Positions 5,378 to 27,586 of a stretch of 61,863 nucleotides of DNA are shown piece after piece. The position numbers were made by a program, and so were the translations under genes. The stretch comes from a virus (taxonomy: Duplodnaviria > Caudoviricetes). The notes under the pieces were generated by a model, which saw only the letters and a program-made list of their open reading frames with translations, made no database searches and had not been told where the DNA came from. The DNA lies in the IMG/VR virus record IMGVR_UViG_3300037247_000311, positions 1 to 61,863 of that record, one strand, 5' to 3'. Each line of letters begins with the position of its first letter. Position 1 is the first letter of the stretch.

Positions 5378-7567
5378 TTAGCGCGTAACGATGCCTCCCG
5401 GCCCAATAGCGTACTCTCTCTGGATTCCCCGCCGCCCTGCACCAGAAAACGCGTGTCTCAGCCCATAGCGAGCAGCGTCAGGGGCATGGTCTTCGCCATC
5501 TGAGTCTACGTCCTCTACGTTGTGCTCGTCTACAATGAGCAGCGGAAGCGTCCGCACAAGGTTCACGCAGGTATCAAAAACAAAGAACCTAGGCGGCGAA
5601 CTAACTCTTCCAGTGGGGTCTTCCGTCCAGTCCACCATCTCCCGCATGAGTCGCCAGCCCGGAACACGCTCGTTGTTCCCCTTGAGCACAGGCGCTATGC
5701 CTGCAAAGCCCCTTTTCCAGTCATCGGCCATAGACTCGATCTGTTCTCCCTTTACGTTCACCTTGCTAAAGAGGGACGGATCAAGAACCACCGCACGAAG
5801 AGTCTCAGAGGAGTCTGCTACTACTTGCTTTGCACGATAAATCTGTTCGCTCAGTTTCACGCCTTCCCCATACTGCTCACGGTAGAAGTATGCTACCTGA
5901 GTACCAGGGGGCCTCGCAAACCACAAGGTTGCATGGGGAGCACCATACCCATAGTCATTACAAAGGAACCTATCCCAATCAGGAGGAATATCAAAAGGCT
6001 TCACTACATGAAGCTCCGGACGCCAGCGTACGAAGAACTGGCCCATAAAGACTTCCCAGTCTCCCATTGCAGCGCGATATTCTTCATAGGGAAGTGCTCT
6101 CAGCCGCTCCGTATAGTTTGGGTCAGCCTTCATGAGAGTGTCGTTATCTGTAACCTTAGCAGGGATATATTGACGAGTCATACCGCCTTCAGCTACGGGG
6201 CTTCGCCAGACTTCTCCTGGTTTAGCAGGATCGTACCAACGGGCTTTCACCCAGCCATGTCCACGTCCAAGAGGAGTTGCCCCCGCACGTATACGAGGTC
6301 CCGGCCACCAGGGCTTAGTAGAACGACAACGGCTGGTGAGATACGTGTAGATGAACTGCGTAAAGTGCGTTAGCTCATCTAGGAGGATTGCGTCGAACTC
6401 GGCTGTATCATATGTATTCTGAGACGATAGACCCGATGCAACATAGGTATCACTACTAGACGAAAGGAGTGCCACAGGTCGATCAACGATCTCATCTACG
6501 GCGACAACAACGACTGACTGTGCACGGCTTTGAGGCACAGGAAGAGATTTTCCTAATAGTTTTGCCCACTTATCAAGTAGTCTGGGCGGGCGCGTCTCTA
6601 TAAGAAATCGAATAATCTGATCCATACCAAACAGGCGTACTTGATATGTATTACGGTGAGGAAGACAAGGATCAACTACAGAAATCCTATAACCCCTCTT
6701 AGTAAGCATACTCTTAACTGCACTAAGAAACGAGTTATCCTTCTGTGAGAAAGTTAGCATTGCAGAGCCGCCCGATATTGACAAACACCCGTCTGCATCA
6801 AATGCAGCAGCTAAGAATCCACTCTCATAATCCCGCCCCAAGTCTGTAGGGGGCGCAATCTGCCTAATTGCAACCTTCTCACCTTGCTTTATCCGCTTAT
6901 ATATCTCATCAGTTCGGAGCCAGTGGGGGCCATATCCCCTATCAACAAGCCATTTGTGTTCTGGATTAGCATCAATTGGCTGTCTATCATCAAAGTGTAG
7001 CCGATGTGTTGGCATAGTAACAGTACTATTAGATGTAACTACTGCACGGCTTAATCTACGTCGGCCCCCACGCTTTAGCACATTCCTGTCAAACCCTAGG
7101 ATTTCATCCCCCGCTCTTAGTTTGTCCGCTCTGACCCAACGCAAGTCTGCCGTAAGTATTGGAGTGCCTATTCCCACACACCGGGCGTCTTCGTCTTTCT
7201 CACAAAAGCGGAGGTGGAGAATCGACCCATTCTTAAAGATCAGGTCGTGGGACTTAGATGAGTAATGTGCGATGGAGGCCGGTACTTCCTGCTGGATAGA
7301 GATAATGTGAGTCTCTTCCAGTTGCCGGTAGGACTGACGGAAGAGAACCACCCTCGCACCAGGGTACGTCATACAGTATCGTACGGCCCAAGCACGAAGC
7401 GCGTAGGACTTGCCTCCACCCTTAGCTCCACCATAGAGTACTTCTTCTGCTTCACTCTCCATAAAATTAGATTGGGGGCCAACATGTGTTTGGTAAAGCA
7501 CGCGTTTCTTCTCACCTCCACCACGGCGGATAGCGTGCTGCTGAGCTGAGAGCCTAGCTCTGGGCAT
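5378..7567 (-). CDS. terL: terminase large subunit, intein-containing
   Basis: Walker A YGGAKGGGKS, Walker B ILLDELTHF, coupling motif GATP, RNase H-like nuclease motifs CNDYGYGAP and DHAPDAARY. Confidence 0.95.
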   Translation of the reverse strand: MPRARLSAQQHAIRRGGGEKKRVLYQTHVGPQSNFMESEAEEVLYGGAKGGGKSYALRAWAVRYCMTYPGARVVLFRQSYRQLEETHIISIQQEVPASIAHYSSKSHDLIFKNGSILHLRFCEKDEDARCVGIGTPILTADLRWVRADKLRAGDEILGFDRNVLKRGGRRRLSRAVVTSNSTVTMPTHRLHFDDRQPIDANPEHKWLVDRGYGPHWLRTDEIYKRIKQGEKVAIRQIAPPTDLGRDYESGFLAAAFDADGCLSISGGSAMLTFSQKDNSFLSAVKSMLTKRGYRISVVDPCLPHRNTYQVRLFGMDQIIRFLIETRPPRLLDKWAKLLGKSLPVPQSRAQSVVVVAVDEIVDRPVALLSSSSDTYVASGLSSQNTYDTAEFDAILLDELTHFTQFIYTYLTSRCRSTKPWWPGPRIRAGATPLGRGHGWVKARWYDPAKPGEVWRSPVAEGGMTRQYIPAKVTDNDTLMKADPNYTERLRALPYEEYRAAMGDWEVFMGQFFVRWRPELHVVKPFDIPPDWDRFLCNDYGYGAPHATLWFARPPGTQVAYFYREQYGEGVKLSEQIYRAKQVVADSSETLRAVVLDPSLFSKVNVKGEQIESMADDWKRGFAGIAPVLKGNNERVPGWRLMREMVDWTEDPTGRVSSPPRFFVFDTCVNLVRTLPLLIVDEHNVEDVDSDGEDHAPDAARYGLRHAFSGAGRRGIQREYAIGPGGIVTR
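6416..7180 (-). mobile_element. intein (255 aa) with LAGLIDADG homing endonuclease in TerL
   Basis: Starts CVGIGTPILTAD (block A), contains ANPEHKWL (block B) and FLAAAFDADG (LAGLIDADG), and ends YVASGLSSQN followed by a +1 Thr. Removal restores a contiguous ATPase domain (DEDAR|TYDTAEFDAILLDE). Confidence 0.92.
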
Positions 7568-9715: not shown

Positions 9716-9933
9716 CCAAATACCCTCTCCATTAGCCAGAAACCCAGCCCTGCACTCAGACCCGCTATAAATCCAGCGATTACACGTTCGGTTATGTCCT
9801 TCCAGTTCCAGGCACCACGCCAACGGAGGAAGCCAAGGATATGAGACTCAGTCTTAGGCTCCCAGCGACCATAGACGGGGTCAGGATGTTGAACCCACTC
9901 TAAAGGGTCAGGATCAGGATGCCGTGTAGACAT
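9712..9933 (-). CDS. small protein with C-terminal transmembrane helix
   Basis: GTG start after GGAGG; hydrophobic VIAGFIAGLSAGLGFWLM. Confidence 0.6.
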   Translation of the reverse strand: MSTRHPDPDPLEWVQHPDPVYGRWEPKTESHILGFLRWRGAWNWKDITERVIAGFIAGLSAGLGFWLMERVFG

Positions 9934-10453
9934 CTGGATCCTCCCACGGATTGGCCGCTTTCTCCGGTAATGGGTTCAATGCGTCTGCCCTCTCCAGATC
10001 ACTTAGCCAGAACCCGTCCATGTTCGTGAACCGTCGCTGGTATCTCCCTTGCAGCTTCCATTCCATTAGGTCATCAAGGAGTGTCCCATAGGCTATGCAG
10101 AGTTTCTGCTGGCATTCATAGTCCTCGTGGAACACAGCAGGACACCGGAGGGAAGTCTTCGGTAGGGCCTTAGTACAGTGGAGAAGTCCAACCTTACCAT
10201 ATTCACAGTGAATCCTAAAGGCCCTCTCTGCGTCCTCCAGAGACTTAGGAACATACCGCCGACACTGACGATCCTCCCATATACGAGCGCCCGCCTTTAC
10301 GCGATTCCTGTAGGTACGCATAGAGACTCTCTTCGCATGGCGGTCGTCTATGTATCGCCTAGGAGCGCCAACACGTGGTTCTTCCGTAAAGGACTCACCA
10401 CAACCACAAGCACATATGATCTGCTGGTTCCAGGGTGAGCGTTTGTCAGTCAT
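9914..10453 (-). CDS. Cys-rich putative Zn-binding / DNA-binding protein
   Basis: N-terminal CACGCG...PRRY motif followed by a basic helix; further Cys/His residues. Confidence 0.6.
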   Translation of the reverse strand: MTDKRSPWNQQIICACGCGESFTEEPRVGAPRRYIDDRHAKRVSMRTYRNRVKAGARIWEDRQCRRYVPKSLEDAERAFRIHCEYGKVGLLHCTKALPKTSLRCPAVFHEDYECQQKLCIAYGTLLDDLMEWKLQGRYQRRFTNMDGFWLSDLERADALNPLPEKAANPWEDPDVYTAS

Positions 10454-10733
10454 CAGTACTAAGGGCGTCTATGCGATCACGTAGTTCTTGGATGTCAGAG
10501 TCTCTAGCCCTACCACAAGAGCCGATACATATAGCATCGTTTAATAACTCGCCGAGCAGATCGCGCAGCGCAGGAACCATATCCGTATACCAAAGGGCCA
10601 TGGGGCGAGAAAGCGTACGACGTACCGTTTCCCATGCTTCTTCTAGTTCAGCCAATTGTGTGCCTCCTAAAGTTCCCACCCGATCTCTAGGTATCCCCAG
10701 AAACCATACCAATCCCGTCCGTTCTAGGCCCAT
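10446..10733 (-). CDS. hypothetical protein
   Basis: ORF overlapping the next gene; extended -10 TGCTACAAT just upstream. Confidence 0.55.
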   Translation of the reverse strand: MGLERTGLVWFLGIPRDRVGTLGGTQLAELEEAWETVRRTLSRPMALWYTDMVPALRDLLGELLNDAICIGSCGRARDSDIQELRDRIDALSTDD

Positions 10734-10766
10734 CTAGCAGACCTATTGTAGCACGGATCACACTAT

Positions 10767-10916
10767 TGGGGAGAAGACCTCCCCAGTTTCAACAGGCCCC
10801 GCCTTGGCTAAGCCTGTTAGCTCAGGGTTGTCCTGCCAGACCACACCTGAGGAGAACAATGCGCCCCACACCACACATCCACTACCACTCCAAAAGTGGG
10901 GCGCTTTCCTAGGAAA
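10767..10916 (-). ncRNA. candidate structured ncRNA or leader (five back-to-back stems)
   Basis: Stems at 10905-10916, 10861-10869/10896-10904, 10821-10826/10846-10851, 10791-10797/10812-10818 and 10767-10773/10779-10785, directly after a consensus promoter. Confidence 0.5.
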
Positions 10917-10922
10917 CTACTA

Positions 10923-10952
10923 ATTATACCACGAGCCAATCTCGTTTGTCAA
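10923..10952 (-). promoter_or_regulatory. consensus sigma70-type promoter
   Basis: TTGACA-N18-TATAAT with extended -10 TG; inverted repeat ACGAG-N5-CTCGT in the spacer. Confidence 0.85.
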
Positions 10953-10958
10953 GGGGAG

Positions 10959-11026
10959 TGGAGGCGGTGTGAGTTGAACACACGTTTGACAGCGGATTAC
11001 TCCGTTGCCACTTCCCCGTCGCCCCC
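10959..11026 (-). ncRNA. 68-nt tRNA-like RNA resembling a stand-alone tmRNA tRNA-like domain
   Basis: GGGGGCG/CGCCTCC-A acceptor with G3-U70; T-arm GTGTG-TTCAACT-CACAC; 9-nt unpaired D region; 10-bp stem (one mismatch) closed by a GTAA tetraloop instead of an anticodon loop. Confidence 0.75.
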
Positions 11027-11031
11027 ACATG

Positions 11032-11244
11032 CTACGCCTCTGATTTTACGTATTTTCGTATTTGTACAACCAAATCCGTAAAGGCCTCATCGTCCAATGA
11101 TAACTGAACGCGATCAGTTGCAAGAGTCTGCATTTTATCATCTTCGTAGAAGCCTTCTAGTGGCTTGTCCACCATAACCCCAACCAGCCCCGTTATAGTG
11201 ACAAGTACCGAGTCTTGGTCCTCACGTTCGATTTCCACGCACAT
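11032..11244 (-). CDS. hypothetical acidic protein
   Basis: AGGAGGT SD, own promoter; ends 5 nt before the tRNA-like element. Confidence 0.7.
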   Translation of the reverse strand: MCVEIEREDQDSVLVTITGLVGVMVDKPLEGFYEDDKMQTLATDRVQLSLDDEAFTDLVVQIRKYVKSEA

Positions 11245-11261
11245 AGATACCTCCTACTTAC

Positions 11262-11290
11262 AGTCTACTATATTACTCCCCAGAAGTCAA
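11262..11290 (-). promoter_or_regulatory. sigma70-type promoter
   Basis: TTGACT-N17-TAGACT upstream of 11032..11244. Confidence 0.6.
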
Positions 11291-11455
11291 GGCCCCTTTG
11301 ATCGGTTCTTGACACCAACACGCCCTTCCTGTCCACTGTCCAGCATAGTCAGTATGATCCTTCTTACCACATTTCTGACACTCTCGATGGCAGATGGGCG
11401 GATTTGTGTCTATAAGAATCGGTGACCGCTTCCATTTGTGATCACAATTCTCCAT
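11273..11455 (-). CDS. small Zn-finger-like protein
   Basis: AGGAGG SD; CxHxW...CxxC motif. Confidence 0.65.
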   Translation of the reverse strand: MENCDHKWKRSPILIDTNPPICHRECQKCGKKDHTDYAGQWTGRACWCQEPIKGALTSGE

Positions 11456-12561: not shown

Positions 12562-12686
12562 CAGCCAAACCATCGACCAAGTCACGCGGCGGAAAGGCTA
12601 GGTGATTAGGGGAATGCCGCTAGACGGTGGTAGGGCTGAATGATTCGCAGTAGACCATGTGCTTACGCACGTGTAGGAGGAATAAC

Positions 12687-13301
12687 ATGGAAAGCAAGAC
12701 AGAGACAGCAATCCTTGAGGCCATCACAGCACAACAAGACGTACTCAAGGGCATCACTACGCGCATGGACGTGCTAGAGGAACAGGCAAGGGTGGTTACG
12801 GTCACGTCGCATGATGTGGCTGTAGCATCGCCGAAGACTATTGACAGACCGCCGAAGAGTAAGGGCCACAAGGTTACGACGATCAAGGCCGACGACCCAG
12901 AACTGCTATCCCTTCGCGGACAGATCACACGCGAGGGCAAGGCTAGGCTGATCGACAAGTGTGCAGCTCACAGCGTAGACGCGCTTCGGACGCTGATTCT
13001 CGCAGGCGGTAGGGCTGCCCGAGAGTTCATGGCCGACAAGCGTACGGCTGCCACAGCGGATGAGGAGTTCCACCTGGTAGACTCAGCCAACGGGCGCTAT
13101 GCCCACGCGCGGCTAGGCCGGATGGAAAGCGGCAAGGGACCGACGGTCGTCATCTCACACACGAAGACAGTGGGCGCGGCCAAGATGACTGCCGACATGA
13201 CAGATGAGCAGCTTCTCGCGCATAGGCCAGTGGGCGCGTCGAACAAGTACGCCGCCCGTCACGCCTGGCTGAAGCGCACGAGGGCTAACCTGGGCTCGTA
13301 G
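12687..13301 (+). CDS. early hypothetical protein (N-terminal coiled coil, basic C-terminus)
   Basis: ATG at 12687 after AGGAGG. Confidence 0.8.
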   Translation: MESKTETAILEAITAQQDVLKGITTRMDVLEEQARVVTVTSHDVAVASPKTIDRPPKSKGHKVTTIKADDPELLSLRGQITREGKARLIDKCAAHSVDALRTLILAGGRAAREFMADKRTAATADEEFHLVDSANGRYAHARLGRMESGKGPTVVISHTKTVGAAKMTADMTDEQLLAHRPVGASNKYAARHAWLKRTRANLGS

Positions 13302-24193: not shown

Positions 24194-24431
24194 ACCTGCA
24201 CGATGGAGCCTAAGGATGGCGGGGGGTATAACTCTTGTTGAGTGGTACGATGGCGCTCTACTGCCTGAAGTTAGGTTCCCTCCGGACATGTGGAAGCGGG
24301 GCTTTATAATAATTGGCAATAATCCATGCAGGGTGAATAAGTGGGTTAGGCTGTACCGCAATGGGCGTCTTCAGTGGAAGGTAAAGATCGGGGAGTCTCT
24401 AAGAAAGGGGCAGGATATTGAGTCACCCTAA
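24186..24431 (+). CDS. hypothetical protein
   Basis: Coupled ORF. Confidence 0.55.
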   Translation: MTKPARWSLRMAGGITLVEWYDGALLPEVRFPPDMWKRGFIIIGNNPCRVNKWVRLYRNGRLQWKVKIGESLRKGQDIESP

Positions 24432-25125
24432 TAAGCCTCTCGGACATAGGGCCTATGGTAGTATCGGGCATCTCCCTACCAGCCGTCTAGGGCCGGGCGA
24501 TCATGCCGTTCACGAGGGCCAGGCTAGGATTTGTACGGAGAAGGCCCGTGATAAGGCTGATATTATTATTGTGCAGGAGAAGCTGGATGGCAGTTGCGTT
24601 GCTGTAGCTAATCACGATGGTAAGATTATTGCCCTTAGTAGGCGTGGGTATCTTGCTGACACGTCGCCATTCGAGATGCTCCACATGTTTGCCGATTGGG
24701 TGCGTGATAATGAGAGCCGCTTTGCCGCTATCTTGGCCCCCGGCGAGCGTTTAGTTGGTGAGTGGCTGGCTCAGGCCCACGGGACAAGGTATGACTTAAA
24801 ACACGAGCCACTTGTTGTCTTTGATCTGATGACAGCACATGATCGAGTTACGTTACGTGAACTGAGGGCACGTGTGGAGCCAAGTGCATTTATTACATCA
24901 TATCTTGTCCATGAGGGAGAGCCCGTTACTGTTGCTCAGATTCTTCCTTATTTAACTACATGGGGTCACGGGGCGCTTGATCCCGTCGAGGGTGCAGTGT
25001 GGCGGGTCGAACGCCACGGAAAGGTAGACTTCCTTGCTAAGTGGGTGCGTCCTGACAAGGAAGACGGCAGCTATCTGCCAGAGATCAGTGGCGAGGAAGC
25101 CGTGTGGAATTGGCGACCAACATAG
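24418..25125 (+). CDS. ATP-dependent RNA ligase (Rnl2-like nucleotidyltransferase)
   Basis: Motif I QEKLDGS, Ia SRR, III GEW, IIIa VFDL, IV EGAVWR, V AKWVR; no OB domain. Confidence 0.88.
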   Translation: MSHPNKPLGHRAYGSIGHLPTSRLGPGDHAVHEGQARICTEKARDKADIIIVQEKLDGSCVAVANHDGKIIALSRRGYLADTSPFEMLHMFADWVRDNESRFAAILAPGERLVGEWLAQAHGTRYDLKHEPLVVFDLMTAHDRVTLRELRARVEPSAFITSYLVHEGEPVTVAQILPYLTTWGHGALDPVEGAVWRVERHGKVDFLAKWVRPDKEDGSYLPEISGEEAVWNWRPT

Positions 25126-25918: not shown

Positions 25919-27586
25919 GTGTGGATACGAACAATGAGAGTGCCCTCAACTCCTGCTAGCCTAGGTCTGCCTGCGAACAAGTATCCTACATGGTGGTCAG
26001 GCCAGCAACAGATGATAGACGACGTACTTACTGCCTTTGACGAGTATAAGTATGTGCTCCTCAATGCGCCTTGGGGATCAGGCAAAACGATAGTAGCCAC
26101 GGCTGTACAACGCTTGATGGACGTACGCTCAGTGAACTTAACGCACACGATTCAACTCCAGCGCCAGTATCTCGATACAATGACGTGGGCGAGTGTTGCA
26201 ACAGGGAGACGGAACCATGCTTGCGAACTAGACATATTGAAGGCCACAGGAGTCACTGCTGACGAGGCACCATGCAAAGTGGGAGCGGCGTGTGAGTACA
26301 TTCGGCCTGATGGGTGCTCTTACTACCAAGGGCTTTATGCGGCAGCAGCCAACCCGCAAGCGGTACTTAATTACTCTTACGCCGTGCGAATCCTACAGGG
26401 GCATGGCGTACTAAACGAAATACAGGGCAACCCCTTTCGGAGGGATTTGTTAGTTTGTGATGAGGGTGACTTGGCGGAGGCGGCAATTATTGATGGTGCA
26501 ACAATAGAGTTAGATAAAACATTTGTAGATATGTTCTCCGCACCGCCTCGAACGTCATTATGTGAGCGCTTTATAGCATGGGCACATGACATTAAAGATC
26601 GCGTAATGGCCTGGCTCCGAGGTGAGCAGGAGGGAGTCGTCTGTGACGATCATAGTCTTGTCCTCTGCGATGAATGTGACCACCACCCGTCGAGTAAAAG
26701 GATCAGCGCATTCCACCGTGCAACTGCATTTGTTGCAGGGCTAAGCGCTTTAGCAAAGATCAAACTAGCTAAGGACTGGACTGTTATTAGGGATAACTGG
26801 AAGGTTTGTGTTCGGCCTATCTGGGGTTGGGCAGTAGCACAAGATGTTGTTTTCTGCCACTTTAAGAAGGTGCTAATCATGTCCGCAACGCTGGGCGATC
26901 CAGCTACGCTTGCATGTAAGTTAGACCTAGCACATGGGGATTGGGTGGTTATCAACGTCCCGTGTATATTTCCTGTGGAAAACCGCCCTGTTCTCTACTG
27001 GCCTGTTGCGAAGATGAGCCGAAAGTCAACTGCCGCAGACTTTGACGCGCTCGCGTCAGCAATCAATTGGCTCGCGCACCAGGATGGGCTAGAAAATAAG
27101 AAGGGGATTATTCATACAGGTAGCTTTAGGCTGGCAGAGCAGCTCTTTAGTAGGCTTAAGCAGAGGAGTGCACGTTATATACTTCATGCTGCTGGGGAGC
27201 AAGACGCCAAAGATACTATTATATCCAAGTTGCGACACGACAAGCAGCCGTTAGTTGTTTTGTCTCCATCACTTGCTACGGGATTAGACGTGCCCTATGA
27301 AATAGGCTTTCAGATCGTGGCAAAGGTCCCGTTTGGAAACCTAGCCGACCCTGTTGTACGGGCGCGTAAGGACTATAAGCGTGGCACGGTCCCATTTGGG
27401 CAGATGAACTATGACAATGAGGCGATCAATGCGGTAGTACAGGCGTATGGGCGAGCTGTCCGTGCCCCCGATGATCAAGGGGTGACGTTTATCCTTGATG
27501 GCCACTTTTGGCCACTGTATAAGCGGACGTATACGCCAGAGTACTTTAGTGAGGCGCTGAGATGGTTAAGGAAGGATGGAAATTAG
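25919..27586 (+). CDS. DinG/XPD-family SF2 helicase (Fe-S)
   Basis: Q-motif, NAPWGSGKT, four-Cys cluster after TGRRNHAC, NYSY, CDEGD, MSATL, TGLDVP, KVPF, QAYGRAVRAPDD. Confidence 0.9.
   Translation: MWIRTMRVPSTPASLGLPANKYPTWWSGQQQMIDDVLTAFDEYKYVLLNAPWGSGKTIVATAVQRLMDVRSVNLTHTIQLQRQYLDTMTWASVATGRRNHACELDILKATGVTADEAPCKVGAACEYIRPDGCSYYQGLYAAAANPQAVLNYSYAVRILQGHGVLNEIQGNPFRRDLLVCDEGDLAEAAIIDGATIELDKTFVDMFSAPPRTSLCERFIAWAHDIKDRVMAWLRGEQEGVVCDDHSLVLCDECDHHPSSKRISAFHRATAFVAGLSALAKIKLAKDWTVIRDNWKVCVRPIWGWAVAQDVVFCHFKKVLIMSATLGDPATLACKLDLAHGDWVVINVPCIFPVENRPVLYWPVAKMSRKSTAADFDALASAINWLAHQDGLENKKGIIHTGSFRLAEQLFSRLKQRSARYILHAAGEQDAKDTIISKLRHDKQPLVVLSPSLATGLDVPYEIGFQIVAKVPFGNLADPVVRARKDYKRGTVPFGQMNYDNEAINAVVQAYGRAVRAPDDQGVTFILDGHFWPLYKRTYTPEYFSEALRWLRKDGN

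What the first reader, a model, noticed from the sequence alone, without database searches (positions are those of the whole stretch)
10959..11026. Anticodon-less, alanine-identity tRNA mimic: a stand-alone tmRNA-like tRNA domain
Seen: GGGGGCG-ACGGGGAAG-TGGCAACGGA-GTAA-TCCGCTGTCA-AAC-GTGTG-TTCAACT-CACAC-CGCCTCC-A. It has a 7-bp acceptor with G3-U70 and discriminator A, a canonical 5-bp/7-nt T-arm, no D-stem, and a long helix capped by a GNRA tetraloop; CCA is not encoded. Established: G3-U70 is the AlaRS identity element, and this topology (no D-stem, helix 2, short linker, T-arm) is that of the tmRNA tRNA-like domain bound by SmpB and EF-Tu; tag-less tmRNAs are known from some mitochondria. 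Inference: a mini-tmRNA without a message domain that could free stalled ribosomes without tagging, titrate SmpB/EF-Tu/AlaRS, or decoy tRNA-sensing defences while being immune to anticodon nucleases.
Basis: partly seen in the sequence, partly recalled or inferred. Interest (0 to 1): 0.8.

Follow-up and report, generated by a model that had tools for sequence, protein, structure and literature searches.

The report
Phage mini-tmRNA lacking the message part
A marine-sediment phage carries a 68-base RNA gene that copies only the tRNA-like end of the bacterial ribosome-rescue RNA (tmRNA), one of a large and largely unannotated family of such phage genes that probably interfere with or hijack the host's ribosome-rescue system.

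Summary
On the minus strand (11026→10959) lies a 68-nt element with a 7-bp acceptor stem (G3·U70, discriminator A), no D-stem, a 10-bp GNRA-capped hairpin, a 5-bp/7-nt T-arm and no encoded CCA.

ARAGORN and the Rfam tRNA model miss it. Rfam's tmRNA model matches both ends at 33.1 bits, below its cut-off of 47, with the whole message region missing.

It is not an orphan. A pattern scan of viral contigs gave 122 matches. Of these, 102 have perfect acceptor and T stems that the pattern did not require.

A covariance model built from 24 of them, without the window, finds the window element at 56.6 bits. It also finds the published "TLD-only" tmRNA of mycobacteriophage DS6A at 45.6 bits.

The phage has no integrase, SmpB or CCA-adding enzyme.

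Best reading: a phage-encoded TLD-only tmRNA homologue that acts on host SmpB and trans-translation. Its identity is well supported. Its mechanism (competition for SmpB) rests on cited literature and was not tested here.

It is a new member of a known but barely described kind. How common the family is in viromes appears to be unreported.

The parts
10959..11026 (-). Whole 68-nt TLD-only tmRNA-like RNA gene (5' end at 11026, discriminator A at 10959)
   Evidence: Sequence. MFE fold. RF00023 33.1 bits, E 1.3e-11. Family model R1 56.6 bits.
11020..11026 (-). Acceptor stem, 5' strand GGGGGCG
   Evidence: Pairs 7/7 with 10960-10966, including G3·U70. Pairs 5 and 6 covary in the family: 40 and 26 of 99 sequences are changed on both sides.
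11011..11019 (-). 9-nt D-loop analogue ACGGGGAAG, with no D-stem
   Evidence: Unpaired in the MFE fold. The motif AC[AG]GG[GT][AG]AG was written into the pattern that collected this subgroup, so its presence in the 15 distinct sequences says nothing about conservation. What the pattern left free is the central hairpin, which differs throughout.
10987..11010 (-). Central hairpin (10 bp, one A·C mismatch, GUAA tetraloop) in the place of tmRNA helix 2 and of the whole message domain
   Evidence: The central region on its own has z = -2.49. 93 of 99 family members fold this region into a single hairpin.
10984..10986 (-). AAC linker
   Evidence: An AAC/GAC/TAC linker is seen throughout the family.
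10967..10983 (-). T-arm GTGTG-TTCAACT-CACAC
   Evidence: Four of the five T-stem pairs covary, and 99.8% of cells are paired.
10960..10966 (-). Acceptor stem, 3' strand CGCCTCC, followed by discriminator A (10959). The next bases are CTC, so CCA is not encoded.
11032..11244 (-). Upstream 70-aa ORF of no known family. Its stop codon ends 5 nt before the element, so the RNA is probably cut out of this transcript.
   Evidence: No Pfam or PHROG match. No homologue in the related phages.
10923..10952 (-). Consensus sigma-70-type promoter (TTGACA-18-TATAAT, 12/12, with TG), starting 6 nt after the discriminator
   Evidence: This is a consensus match only and was not shown to be functional.

Best explanation
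The element is a phage gene for a 'TLD-only' (CDS-less) tmRNA homologue. It is a small RNA that keeps the tRNA-like domain of tmRNA (alanine-identity acceptor stem, D-loop analogue, T-arm) and closes helix 2 into a short hairpin. It therefore has no resume codon, no tag reading frame and no pseudoknots.

Inferred steps:
1. It is transcribed by host RNA polymerase as the tail of the upstream small-ORF transcript.
2. It is released by the tRNA-processing enzymes (RNase P at the 5' end; an endo- or exonuclease plus the host CCA-adding enzyme at the 3' end).
3. It then binds the host's SmpB, and possibly AlaRS and EF-Tu.
4. Because it cannot supply a message, it competes with the host tmRNA and damps or diverts trans-translation (proteolytic tagging) during infection.

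Shown here: the anatomy, membership of a large covarying viral family that includes the DS6A element, and the absence of phage SmpB, integrase and CCA-adding enzyme.

Taken from the literature: a similar molecule inhibits tmRNA in E. coli.

Inferred and untested: transcription, processing, charging, SmpB binding and the benefit to the phage.
For: 1. Anatomy as described.

2. Only RF00023 tmRNA matches. Model positions 1-18 and 345-374 are aligned and the middle is deleted, at 33.1 bits. The tRNA model has no match at E<=10. ARAGORN finds nothing.

3. Family. Of these, 108 have at least 6/7 acceptor and at least 4/5 T-stem pairs, and 102 are perfect. By my own arithmetic, the chance for the eight free pairs is about 0.375^8, or 4e-4.

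4. Covariation. In the alignment of 24, acceptor pairs 5 and 6 and four T-stem pairs change on both sides with no breaks. In the alignment of 99, 92.2% of cells are paired against 71.0% in shuffles. The covariation score is 0.520 against 0.135, reached by 0 of 500 shuffles. Slid controls give 50-61% paired.

5. Model R1, built from 24 viral elements without the window, scores the window element at 56.6 bits over its full length. It scores the DS6A element at 45.6 bits and finds nothing else above 10 bits in 200 kb.

6. Literature. DS6A is listed as 'TLD only'. [quoted passage not shown] 7. Gene-like context in the family. In 8 of 108 loci the element sits within 1 kb of same-strand tRNA genes, some inside tRNA arrays.

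8. Dependence on host factors. SmpB is found in 0 of 34 carrier viral records, 14 of them at least 90% complete, and not in this phage.

9. Not an att site. This phage has no tyrosine or serine recombinase. Only 4 of 34 carriers have a tyrosine integrase. DS6A integrates at tRNA-Lys, not at the tmRNA gene (PMC10865867, passages).
Against: There is no expression evidence of any kind.

CCA is not encoded (CTC follows the discriminator), whereas three tRNAs of a distantly related phage, G004, do encode CCA. Charging therefore depends on host processing, or does not occur.

The tmRNA-typical D-loop motif (GGnUUCGAC in the Rfam consensus) is replaced by ACGGGGAAG. The score is below Rfam's cut-off. 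Whether SmpB recognises this variant is unknown.

None of the three closer related phages (portal 68-71% identical) has any tRNA-like element in the syntenic region. The gene is therefore dispensable in this lineage.

Sub-threshold tmRNA hits can be ordinary tRNAs, as in relative G004.

The R1 score is partly circular. The training sequences were collected with a pattern modelled on this element and the tmRNA consensus.

The key functional paper (Mao et al. 2009) was not held. I know it only from two citing papers.
Confidence: 0.55

Rival explanations
1. Tag-less ribosome rescue. The RNA is charged with alanine and delivered by host SmpB/EF-Tu to stalled ribosomes. It accepts the nascent chain and lets the ribosome be recycled without adding a degradation tag, as proposed for CDS-less mitochondrial tmRNAs. 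This would help the phage keep ribosomes free without destroying its own truncated products.
For: The anatomy is the same as in the best explanation: G3·U70 and A73, the alanine identity set by established knowledge, plus an intact T-arm. CDS-less tmRNAs in mitochondria and two plastids are conserved together with SmpB and are thought to help with incomplete mRNAs (PMC11915505, passages). 37 of 94 distinct family sequences encode CCA, which suggests that many members are charged.
Against: Here CCA is not encoded. The cited E. coli experiment reports inhibition of tmRNA, independent of chargeability. No mechanism is known for releasing a peptidyl-TLD without a stop codon. The phage encodes no release-factor-like partner that I looked for, but I searched only for SmpB and the CCA-adding enzyme.
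Confidence: 0.2
2. A cis-acting tRNA-like punctuation signal. The fold serves mainly as an RNase P/RNase Z cleavage site. It would define the 3' end of the upstream small-ORF mRNA and separate it from the transcript of the strong promoter 6 nt downstream. The released RNA would have no role of its own.
For: The element starts 5 nt after a stop codon and ends 6 nt before a 12/12 consensus promoter. No terminator-like site was found on this strand. The DS6A element likewise starts 10 nt after the gp33 stop codon.
Against: A processing signal does not need G3·U70 or A73, nor a tmRNA-type D-loop. The G3·U70 pair and the D-loop motif were both fixed by my collecting patterns, so their presence in the collected sequences does not show selection. 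Many members encode CCA (37 of 94), and some sit in tRNA arrays, where punctuation is already provided. This role does not exclude a trans-acting one.
Confidence: 0.1
3. A decoy or alternative substrate for something other than trans-translation. Examples are a bait for tRNA-directed defence nucleases, an AlaRS/EF-Tu sponge, or an alanyl donor for a non-ribosomal reaction.
For: It has no anticodon loop, so anticodon nucleases could not cut it in the usual way. The phage carries an RNA ligase-family gene (PF09414, 24418-25125). DS6A carries an RtcB-like RNA ligase. Both hint at an RNA-damage context.
Against: There is no direct evidence. The RNA ligase is 13 kb away on the other strand. No neighbouring gene is shared between this locus and the other 100+ loci.
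Confidence: 0.1
4. A decaying pseudogene or integration-site remnant: a broken tRNA-Ala or tmRNA fragment, or a former attP, with no function.
For: It scores below Rfam's cut-off. CCA is missing. It is absent from the three closer relatives. It lies in a hypervariable region of ORFans.
Against: All 12 stem pairs of the acceptor and T-arm are intact, and the T-loop is canonical. An attP needs only the 3' part of the gene, yet both acceptor strands are present. There is no integrase. Other metagenomic elements of the same architecture have fully intact stems but completely different central hairpins, which argues for selection on the fold.
Confidence: 0.05

Closest known systems
TLD-only tmRNA of Mycobacterium phage DS6A (tmRNA Website id 11587; 'Phage__Mycobacterium.9')
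   Same: Both are phage-encoded. Both have a 7-bp acceptor with G3·U70 and discriminator A, no D-stem, a closed hairpin instead of the message domain, and a T-arm. Neither encodes CCA. Both start a few nt after the stop codon of an upstream ORF. Both fall below Rfam's tmRNA cut-off (43.2 against 33.1 bits). Both are found by the same family model R1 (45.6 and 56.6 bits).
   Different: DS6A's element is 80 nt and has a longer D-loop that keeps the tmRNA-like GGUCGAC. Its helix has an internal loop and an apical stem. The window element is 68 nt, with D-loop ACGGGGAAG and a plain GNRA hairpin. DS6A is a temperate actinophage with an integrase. This phage has none and no detectable relatives among cultured phages.
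Full-length bacterial and phage tmRNA (Rfam RF00023; one-piece and permuted forms)
   Same: The termini align to the model: GGGGGCGA at the 5' end and ACG-T-arm-CCGCCUCCA at the 3' end. It carries alanine identity elements.
   Different: It has no pseudoknots, no resume codon and no tag ORF. Only 31 nt replace 326 model positions. No permuted-tmRNA or other tmRNA model matches nearby at E<=10. ARAGORN calls no tmRNA.
CDS-less organellar tmRNAs (jakobid/oomycete mitochondria, Rfam RF02544; two ~65-bp plastid genes)
   Same: The reduction to about the TLD is the same, and they presumably depend on an SmpB encoded elsewhere (PMC11915505, passages).
   Different: The mt-tmRNA model does not match the window at E<=10. 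Those are organellar genes co-evolving with an imported SmpB, not viral genes acting on a host system.
Canonical tRNA-Ala
   Same: G3·U70, A73 and the T-arm. ARAGORN calls two family members tRNA-Ala.
   Different: It has no D-stem and no 7-nt anticodon loop. RF00005 gives no match at E<=10, and ARAGORN makes no call in the window.

Membership tests
TLD-only (CDS-less) phage tmRNA, DS6A type | 7-bp acceptor stem with G3·U70 and discriminator A73 | tested here: met
   The same holds in DS6A.
TLD-only (CDS-less) phage tmRNA, DS6A type | tRNA-type T-arm (5 bp, 7-nt loop TTCRANY) and no D-stem | tested here: met
   GTGTG-TTCAACT-CACAC, and a 9-nt unpaired D-loop analogue.
TLD-only (CDS-less) phage tmRNA, DS6A type | Helix 2 closed into a hairpin, with no tag reading frame | tested here: met
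   A 24-nt hairpin. 31 nt lie between the matched ends of RF00023.
TLD-only (CDS-less) phage tmRNA, DS6A type | Detected by one sequence-and-structure model together with the reference member | tested here: met
   R1, built without either sequence, scores the window at 56.6 bits and DS6A at 45.6 bits. Caveat: the training set was collected with a pattern modelled on this element.
TLD-only (CDS-less) phage tmRNA, DS6A type | Binds SmpB and inhibits tmRNA function | not testable with these tools
   Known only from citing papers for 'a similar molecule'. No RNA-protein tool is on hand.
Full-length tmRNA (RF00023) | Score at or above the curated cut-off (47 bits) | tested here: not met
   33.1 bits.
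Full-length tmRNA (RF00023) | mRNA-like domain with resume codon, tag ORF and pseudoknots | tested here: not met
   326 model positions are replaced by 31 nt. ARAGORN finds no tmRNA or tag peptide.
Canonical tRNA (RF00005 / ARAGORN) | Cloverleaf with D-arm and 7-nt anticodon loop | tested here: not met
   No RF00005 match at E<=10 in the genome. ARAGORN finds 0 genes.
Mitochondrial tmRNA (RF02544) | Match to the family model | tested here: not met
   No match at E<=10.
attP / ssrA 3' fragment carried by a temperate phage | Phage integrase present, and only the 3' part of the gene carried | tested here: not met
   No PF00589 or PF00239 match. Both acceptor strands are present.

The most novel reading that the evidence does not exclude
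TLD-only 'mini-tmRNAs' are not a curiosity of one mycobacteriophage. They are a large, diverse, virus-borne RNA family. They occur in phage genomes from 16 to 231 kb, and in most of those checked no tyrosine integrase was found. One subgroup, which includes this element, has its own D-loop motif, is invisible to ARAGORN and falls below Rfam's cut-off. If so, manipulating host trans-translation through an SmpB-binding RNA mimic would be a common phage strategy that has not been studied systematically.
Probability: 0.45. Interest if true: 0.75.

Novelty: new member of a known kind. Interest (0 to 1): 0.55.

Why it matters
Trans-translation is a near-universal bacterial quality-control system. 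Why phages carry tmRNA genes at all is unsettled.

A message-less tmRNA mimic can only bind the system's factors, or rescue ribosomes without tagging. It therefore offers a clean natural probe of what phages gain from touching this pathway.

The family found here gives many natural sequence variants of a minimal SmpB/AlaRS/EF-Tu ligand. Each has intact acceptor and T stems but a different central hairpin.

It also shows that standard annotation misses a whole subgroup. ARAGORN and the Rfam cut-off both miss it.

For this window alone the result is modest: one more member of a kind first noted in phage DS6A.

Tried and rejected
**Standard detectors**
- ARAGORN finds 0 genes in the window.
- Rfam at gathering thresholds finds 0.
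- The tRNA model RF00005 and the mt-tmRNA model RF02544 give no match at E<=10.

**Related phages**
- Four were found through the portal protein.
- The three closer ones have no tRNA-like element genome-wide or in the syntenic region.
- The fourth, G004, has ordinary tRNAs (His, Val, Asp, Met, Pro) elsewhere. Its sub-threshold tmRNA hit is a plain tRNA-Pro. I therefore did not count it as a homologue.

**Other sequence searches**
- A very specific pattern found only a chance match inside a coding region, L009.
- BLAST against cultured phages found nothing. I tried the locus, the portal protein, the element and a family member.
- I looked for genes conserved next to the element across the loci and found none.
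- The neighbouring ORFs have no Pfam or PHROG family. One weak WSC hit is below its cut-off.

**Expression**
- No RNA holder is listed for this stretch. The one DNA run may be the source sample.

**Alignment limits**
- The central-helix pairs in the model alignment are only 61% paired, because helices of different length are not aligned column by column. I used per-sequence folding instead.
- Seven ARAGORN 'tmRNA' calls of 300-490 nt share the 3' end of a mini-element. For L101, Infernal aligns only the 85-nt form, so I take these calls as over-extensions. I did not resolve them.
- Five loci of an 84-85-nt class (L016, L038, L055, L093, L111) look like 3' parts of full-length tmRNAs. I left them out.
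- L025 also matches the permuted-tmRNA model and may be part of a two-piece gene.

**Subsets used**
- A1 used 24 of the 92 distinct viral elements, picked by eye.
- Searches used 34 of the 108 carrier loci, those on contigs of about 16 kb or more.

**Literature**
- Searches found no paper describing many TLD-only tmRNAs in phages.
- Mao et al. 2009 and Jacob et al. 2004 are not held.
- Supplementary tables of PMC11915505, which may list more phage entries, were not opened.

Full report
**1. The observation**

The window is a complete 61,863-bp viral genome record with direct terminal repeats. The quoted sequence is the reverse complement of 10959-11026, so the element is on the minus strand.

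Read 5' to 3', it consists of:
- GGGGGCG, the acceptor 5' strand.
- ACGGGGAAG, unpaired.
- TGGCAACGGA-GTAA-TCCGCTGTCA, a 10-bp hairpin with one A·C mismatch and a GNRA loop.
- AAC, a linker.
- GTGTG-TTCAACT-CACAC, the T-arm.
- CGCCTCC, the acceptor 3' strand, giving G3·U70.
- A, the discriminator.
- The next bases are CTC, so CCA is not encoded.

The minimum-free-energy structure is exactly this fold: -28.9 kcal/mol, z = -2.57, with 5 of 200 shuffles folding as well.

**2. Standard detectors**

- ARAGORN finds no tRNA or tmRNA in the window.
- Rfam finds nothing at gathering thresholds.
- With permissive thresholds on 10700-11300, the only match of 4227 families is tmRNA RF00023. It scores 33.1 bits (cut-off 47) with E = 1.3e-11. 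Both termini are aligned, and 326 model positions are replaced by 31 nt.
- For the whole genome that hit has E = 3.1e-13.
- The tRNA model RF00005 and the mitochondrial tmRNA model RF02544 give no match at E<=10.
- A caution: the same sub-threshold tmRNA hit type can come from ordinary tRNAs. In a distant relative (G004), a 22.7-bit tmRNA hit is a normal tRNA-Pro in a tRNA cluster.

**3. Genomic setting**

The element begins 5 nt after the stop codon of a 70-aa ORF (11032-11244, minus strand). It ends 6 nt before a perfect TTGACA-18-TATAAT promoter with an extended -10 (10952-10923). No terminator-like site is seen on this strand. The RNA would therefore be cut out of a longer transcript.

The flanking small ORFs have no Pfam or PHROG family. 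They also have no homologues in the four related phages found through the portal protein. The genes further out (9914-10453, 12657-13301) are conserved in those relatives. The element thus lies in a variable accessory region next to the divergent-transcription switch at about 12 kb.

The three closer relatives carry no tRNA-like element there or elsewhere.

This phage has no match to:
- tyrosine or serine recombinase,
- SmpB,
- the CCA-adding enzyme family.

It does encode a family-A DNA polymerase, a helicase, an ERCC4 nuclease and an RNA-ligase-family protein. No cultured phage resembles it.

**4. A family**

I scanned viral contigs with a pattern that fixes G1-G4, G7-A8, 'AC' before the T-stem, the T-loop and the 3' CTCCA. 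It leaves the other stem positions free.
- Of 122 matches, 108 have at least 6/7 acceptor pairs and at least 4/5 T-stem pairs. 102 are perfect.
- The pattern does not demand these pairings. By my arithmetic, eight free pairs would all form by chance about 4 times in 10,000.
- The 108 elements make 92 distinct sequences of 56-85 nt.
- Adding the window and DS6A elements gives 94 distinct sequences. CCA follows the discriminator in 37 of these.
- Most fold as acceptor stem, unpaired D-loop analogue, one central hairpin, a 3-4-nt linker and T-arm.
- G3·U70 was imposed by the pattern, so it is not independent evidence.

**5. Covariation and membership**

In an alignment of 24 of these elements (chosen by eye, window excluded), acceptor pairs 5 and 6 and four T-stem pairs change on both sides with no broken pairs.

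I built a covariance model, R1, from it and searched 200 kb: the window, four relatives' loci and 50 kb of DS6A.
- The window element is the top hit: 56.6 bits, E = 1.9e-10, full length.
- The DS6A element is second: 45.6 bits.
- Nothing else scores above 10 bits.

On 99 sources the model finds exactly one element in each. In that alignment:
- 92.2% of cells are paired, against 71.0% in shuffles.
- The covariation score is 0.520 against 0.135, reached by 0 of 500 shuffles.
- Slid controls give 50-61% paired.
- The acceptor stem is 99.7% paired and the T-stem 99.8%.
- The three modelled central pairs are only 61% paired, because helices of unequal length are not aligned.

Folding the central region of each sequence on its own gives a single hairpin in 93 of 99. 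The mean z is -1.53, and the window's is -2.49.

Caveat: the training set was collected with a pattern modelled on this element, so part of the R1 score is circular.

**6. The window's subgroup**

The window's D-loop fits the motif AC[AG]GG[GT][AG]AG. A stricter pattern containing that motif found 40 metagenome loci. Together with the viral loci this gives 15 distinct sequences of 60-82 nt, 14 of them with fully intact stems. The motif was part of the search pattern, so its presence in these sequences is not evidence of conservation. Their central hairpins, which the pattern left free, are completely different from one another.

A slightly relaxed pattern found only two contigs among 185,579 species genomes. 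Both are MAG contigs. One has the same length (42,634 nt) as a viral contig already in hand, L067, and carries an element of the same length, so it is probably the same contig.

This subgroup is missed by ARAGORN (0 calls at these elements). It falls below Rfam's cut-off: 8 of the 15 loci examined had the mini-element at 47 bits or more. The 7 without a hit include all four subgroup members tested.

**7. Family context**

- In 8 of 108 loci, same-strand tRNA genes lie within 1 kb, and some elements sit inside tRNA arrays.
- Of 34 carrier records on longer contigs (14 at least 90% complete, 16-231 kb), none encodes SmpB and only 4 encode a tyrosine integrase.
- These are therefore genes of diverse phages, most without a detected tyrosine integrase, that depend on host factors. 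They are not att-site debris.

**8. What is known**

Hudson, Lau and Williams (2014; PMC4131195, passages seen) list 'Mycobacterium phage DS6A (TLD only)'. [quoted passage not shown]

The 2025 tmRNA database paper (PMC11915505, passages) repeats this. It adds CDS-less tmRNAs in mitochondria and two plastids. It searched RefSeq viruses only.

I located the DS6A element at JN698994 28478-28557. It is 80 nt, scores 43.2 bits with RF00023, has no encoded CCA, and starts 10 nt after the gp33 stop codon. DS6A integrates at a tRNA-Lys gene, not at the tmRNA gene (PMC10865867, passages).

Seven full-text searches found no description of a large viral family of such RNAs. Mao et al. 2009 itself is not held, and supplements could not be read.

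**9. Mechanism**

Shown here:
- the anatomy,
- family membership,
- covariation,
- the lack of a message domain,
- the lack of phage SmpB, integrase and CCA-adding enzyme.

From established knowledge: G3·U70 with A73 is the AlaRS identity set. SmpB and EF-Tu bind the tmRNA TLD.

From the cited literature: a TLD-only molecule inhibits tmRNA in E. coli whether or not it can be charged.

Inferred: the RNA is processed like a tRNA, receives CCA from the host enzyme, and binds host SmpB. It thereby competes with host tmRNA, which lowers tagging of proteins during infection.

Rivals are tag-less rescue, a purely cis-acting processing signal, a decoy for other tRNA-binding systems, and a decaying remnant. 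They are listed with their tests. None is excluded except chance and the att-site reading.

**10. Verdict**

The element is a new member of a known but scarcely documented kind, the phage TLD-only tmRNA. It belongs to a divergent subgroup that current annotation tools miss.

The more interesting result is the size and diversity of the viral family, which I could only sample.

Noticed in passing
window 10734-10918 (minus strand): The 185-nt stretch between the consensus promoter and the next ORF folds into a very stable multi-hairpin structure (-76.7 kcal/mol, z = -2.6, 1 of 200 shuffles as good). It could be a structured 5' leader or a small RNA. No Rfam family matches it at E<=10 over 10734-10918.
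   Followed up: partly
window 5378-7567 (minus strand): The large terminase ORF (729 aa) matches Terminase_6N only at residues 45-133 and carries a LAGLIDADG domain at residues 246-322. This looks like an intein or homing-endonuclease insertion in the terminase.
   Followed up: partly
window 24418-25125 (plus strand): An RNA ligase-family protein (PF09414, E = 7e-16). Phage DS6A, the other phage with a TLD-only tmRNA, carries an RtcB-like RNA ligase. Whether RNA repair and mini-tmRNAs co-occur was not tested.
   Followed up: no
L006 (relative G004, record positions about 26,100-27,440, minus strand): The distant relative carries a cluster of five tRNA genes (His, Val, Asp, Met, Pro). They are interspersed with small ORFs and promoter-like TTGACA/TATAAT sites. 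The Met, Asp and Pro genes that I read encode CCA.
   Followed up: partly
L025 56-235 (minus strand): In one 231-kb viral contig the mini-element overlaps a match to the permuted two-piece tmRNA model RF04321 (62.2 bits). A complete acceptor stem therefore sits in front of what may be a two-piece tmRNA gene.
   Followed up: no
L101, L034, L020, L039, L040 (viral contigs): ARAGORN-490-nt 'tmRNAs' with odd tag peptides that end at the 3' end of a mini-element. For L101, Infernal aligns only the 85-nt form, at 69.9 bits. These are likely over-extended calls and a possible source of mis-annotated phage tmRNAs.
   Followed up: partly
L103 7492-7568 and L095 7286-7362: ARAGORN labels two family members as tRNA-Ala, because the apical loop of their central hairpin contains TGC. 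This hints that some members may descend from, or mimic, tRNA-Ala rather than tmRNA.
   Followed up: no
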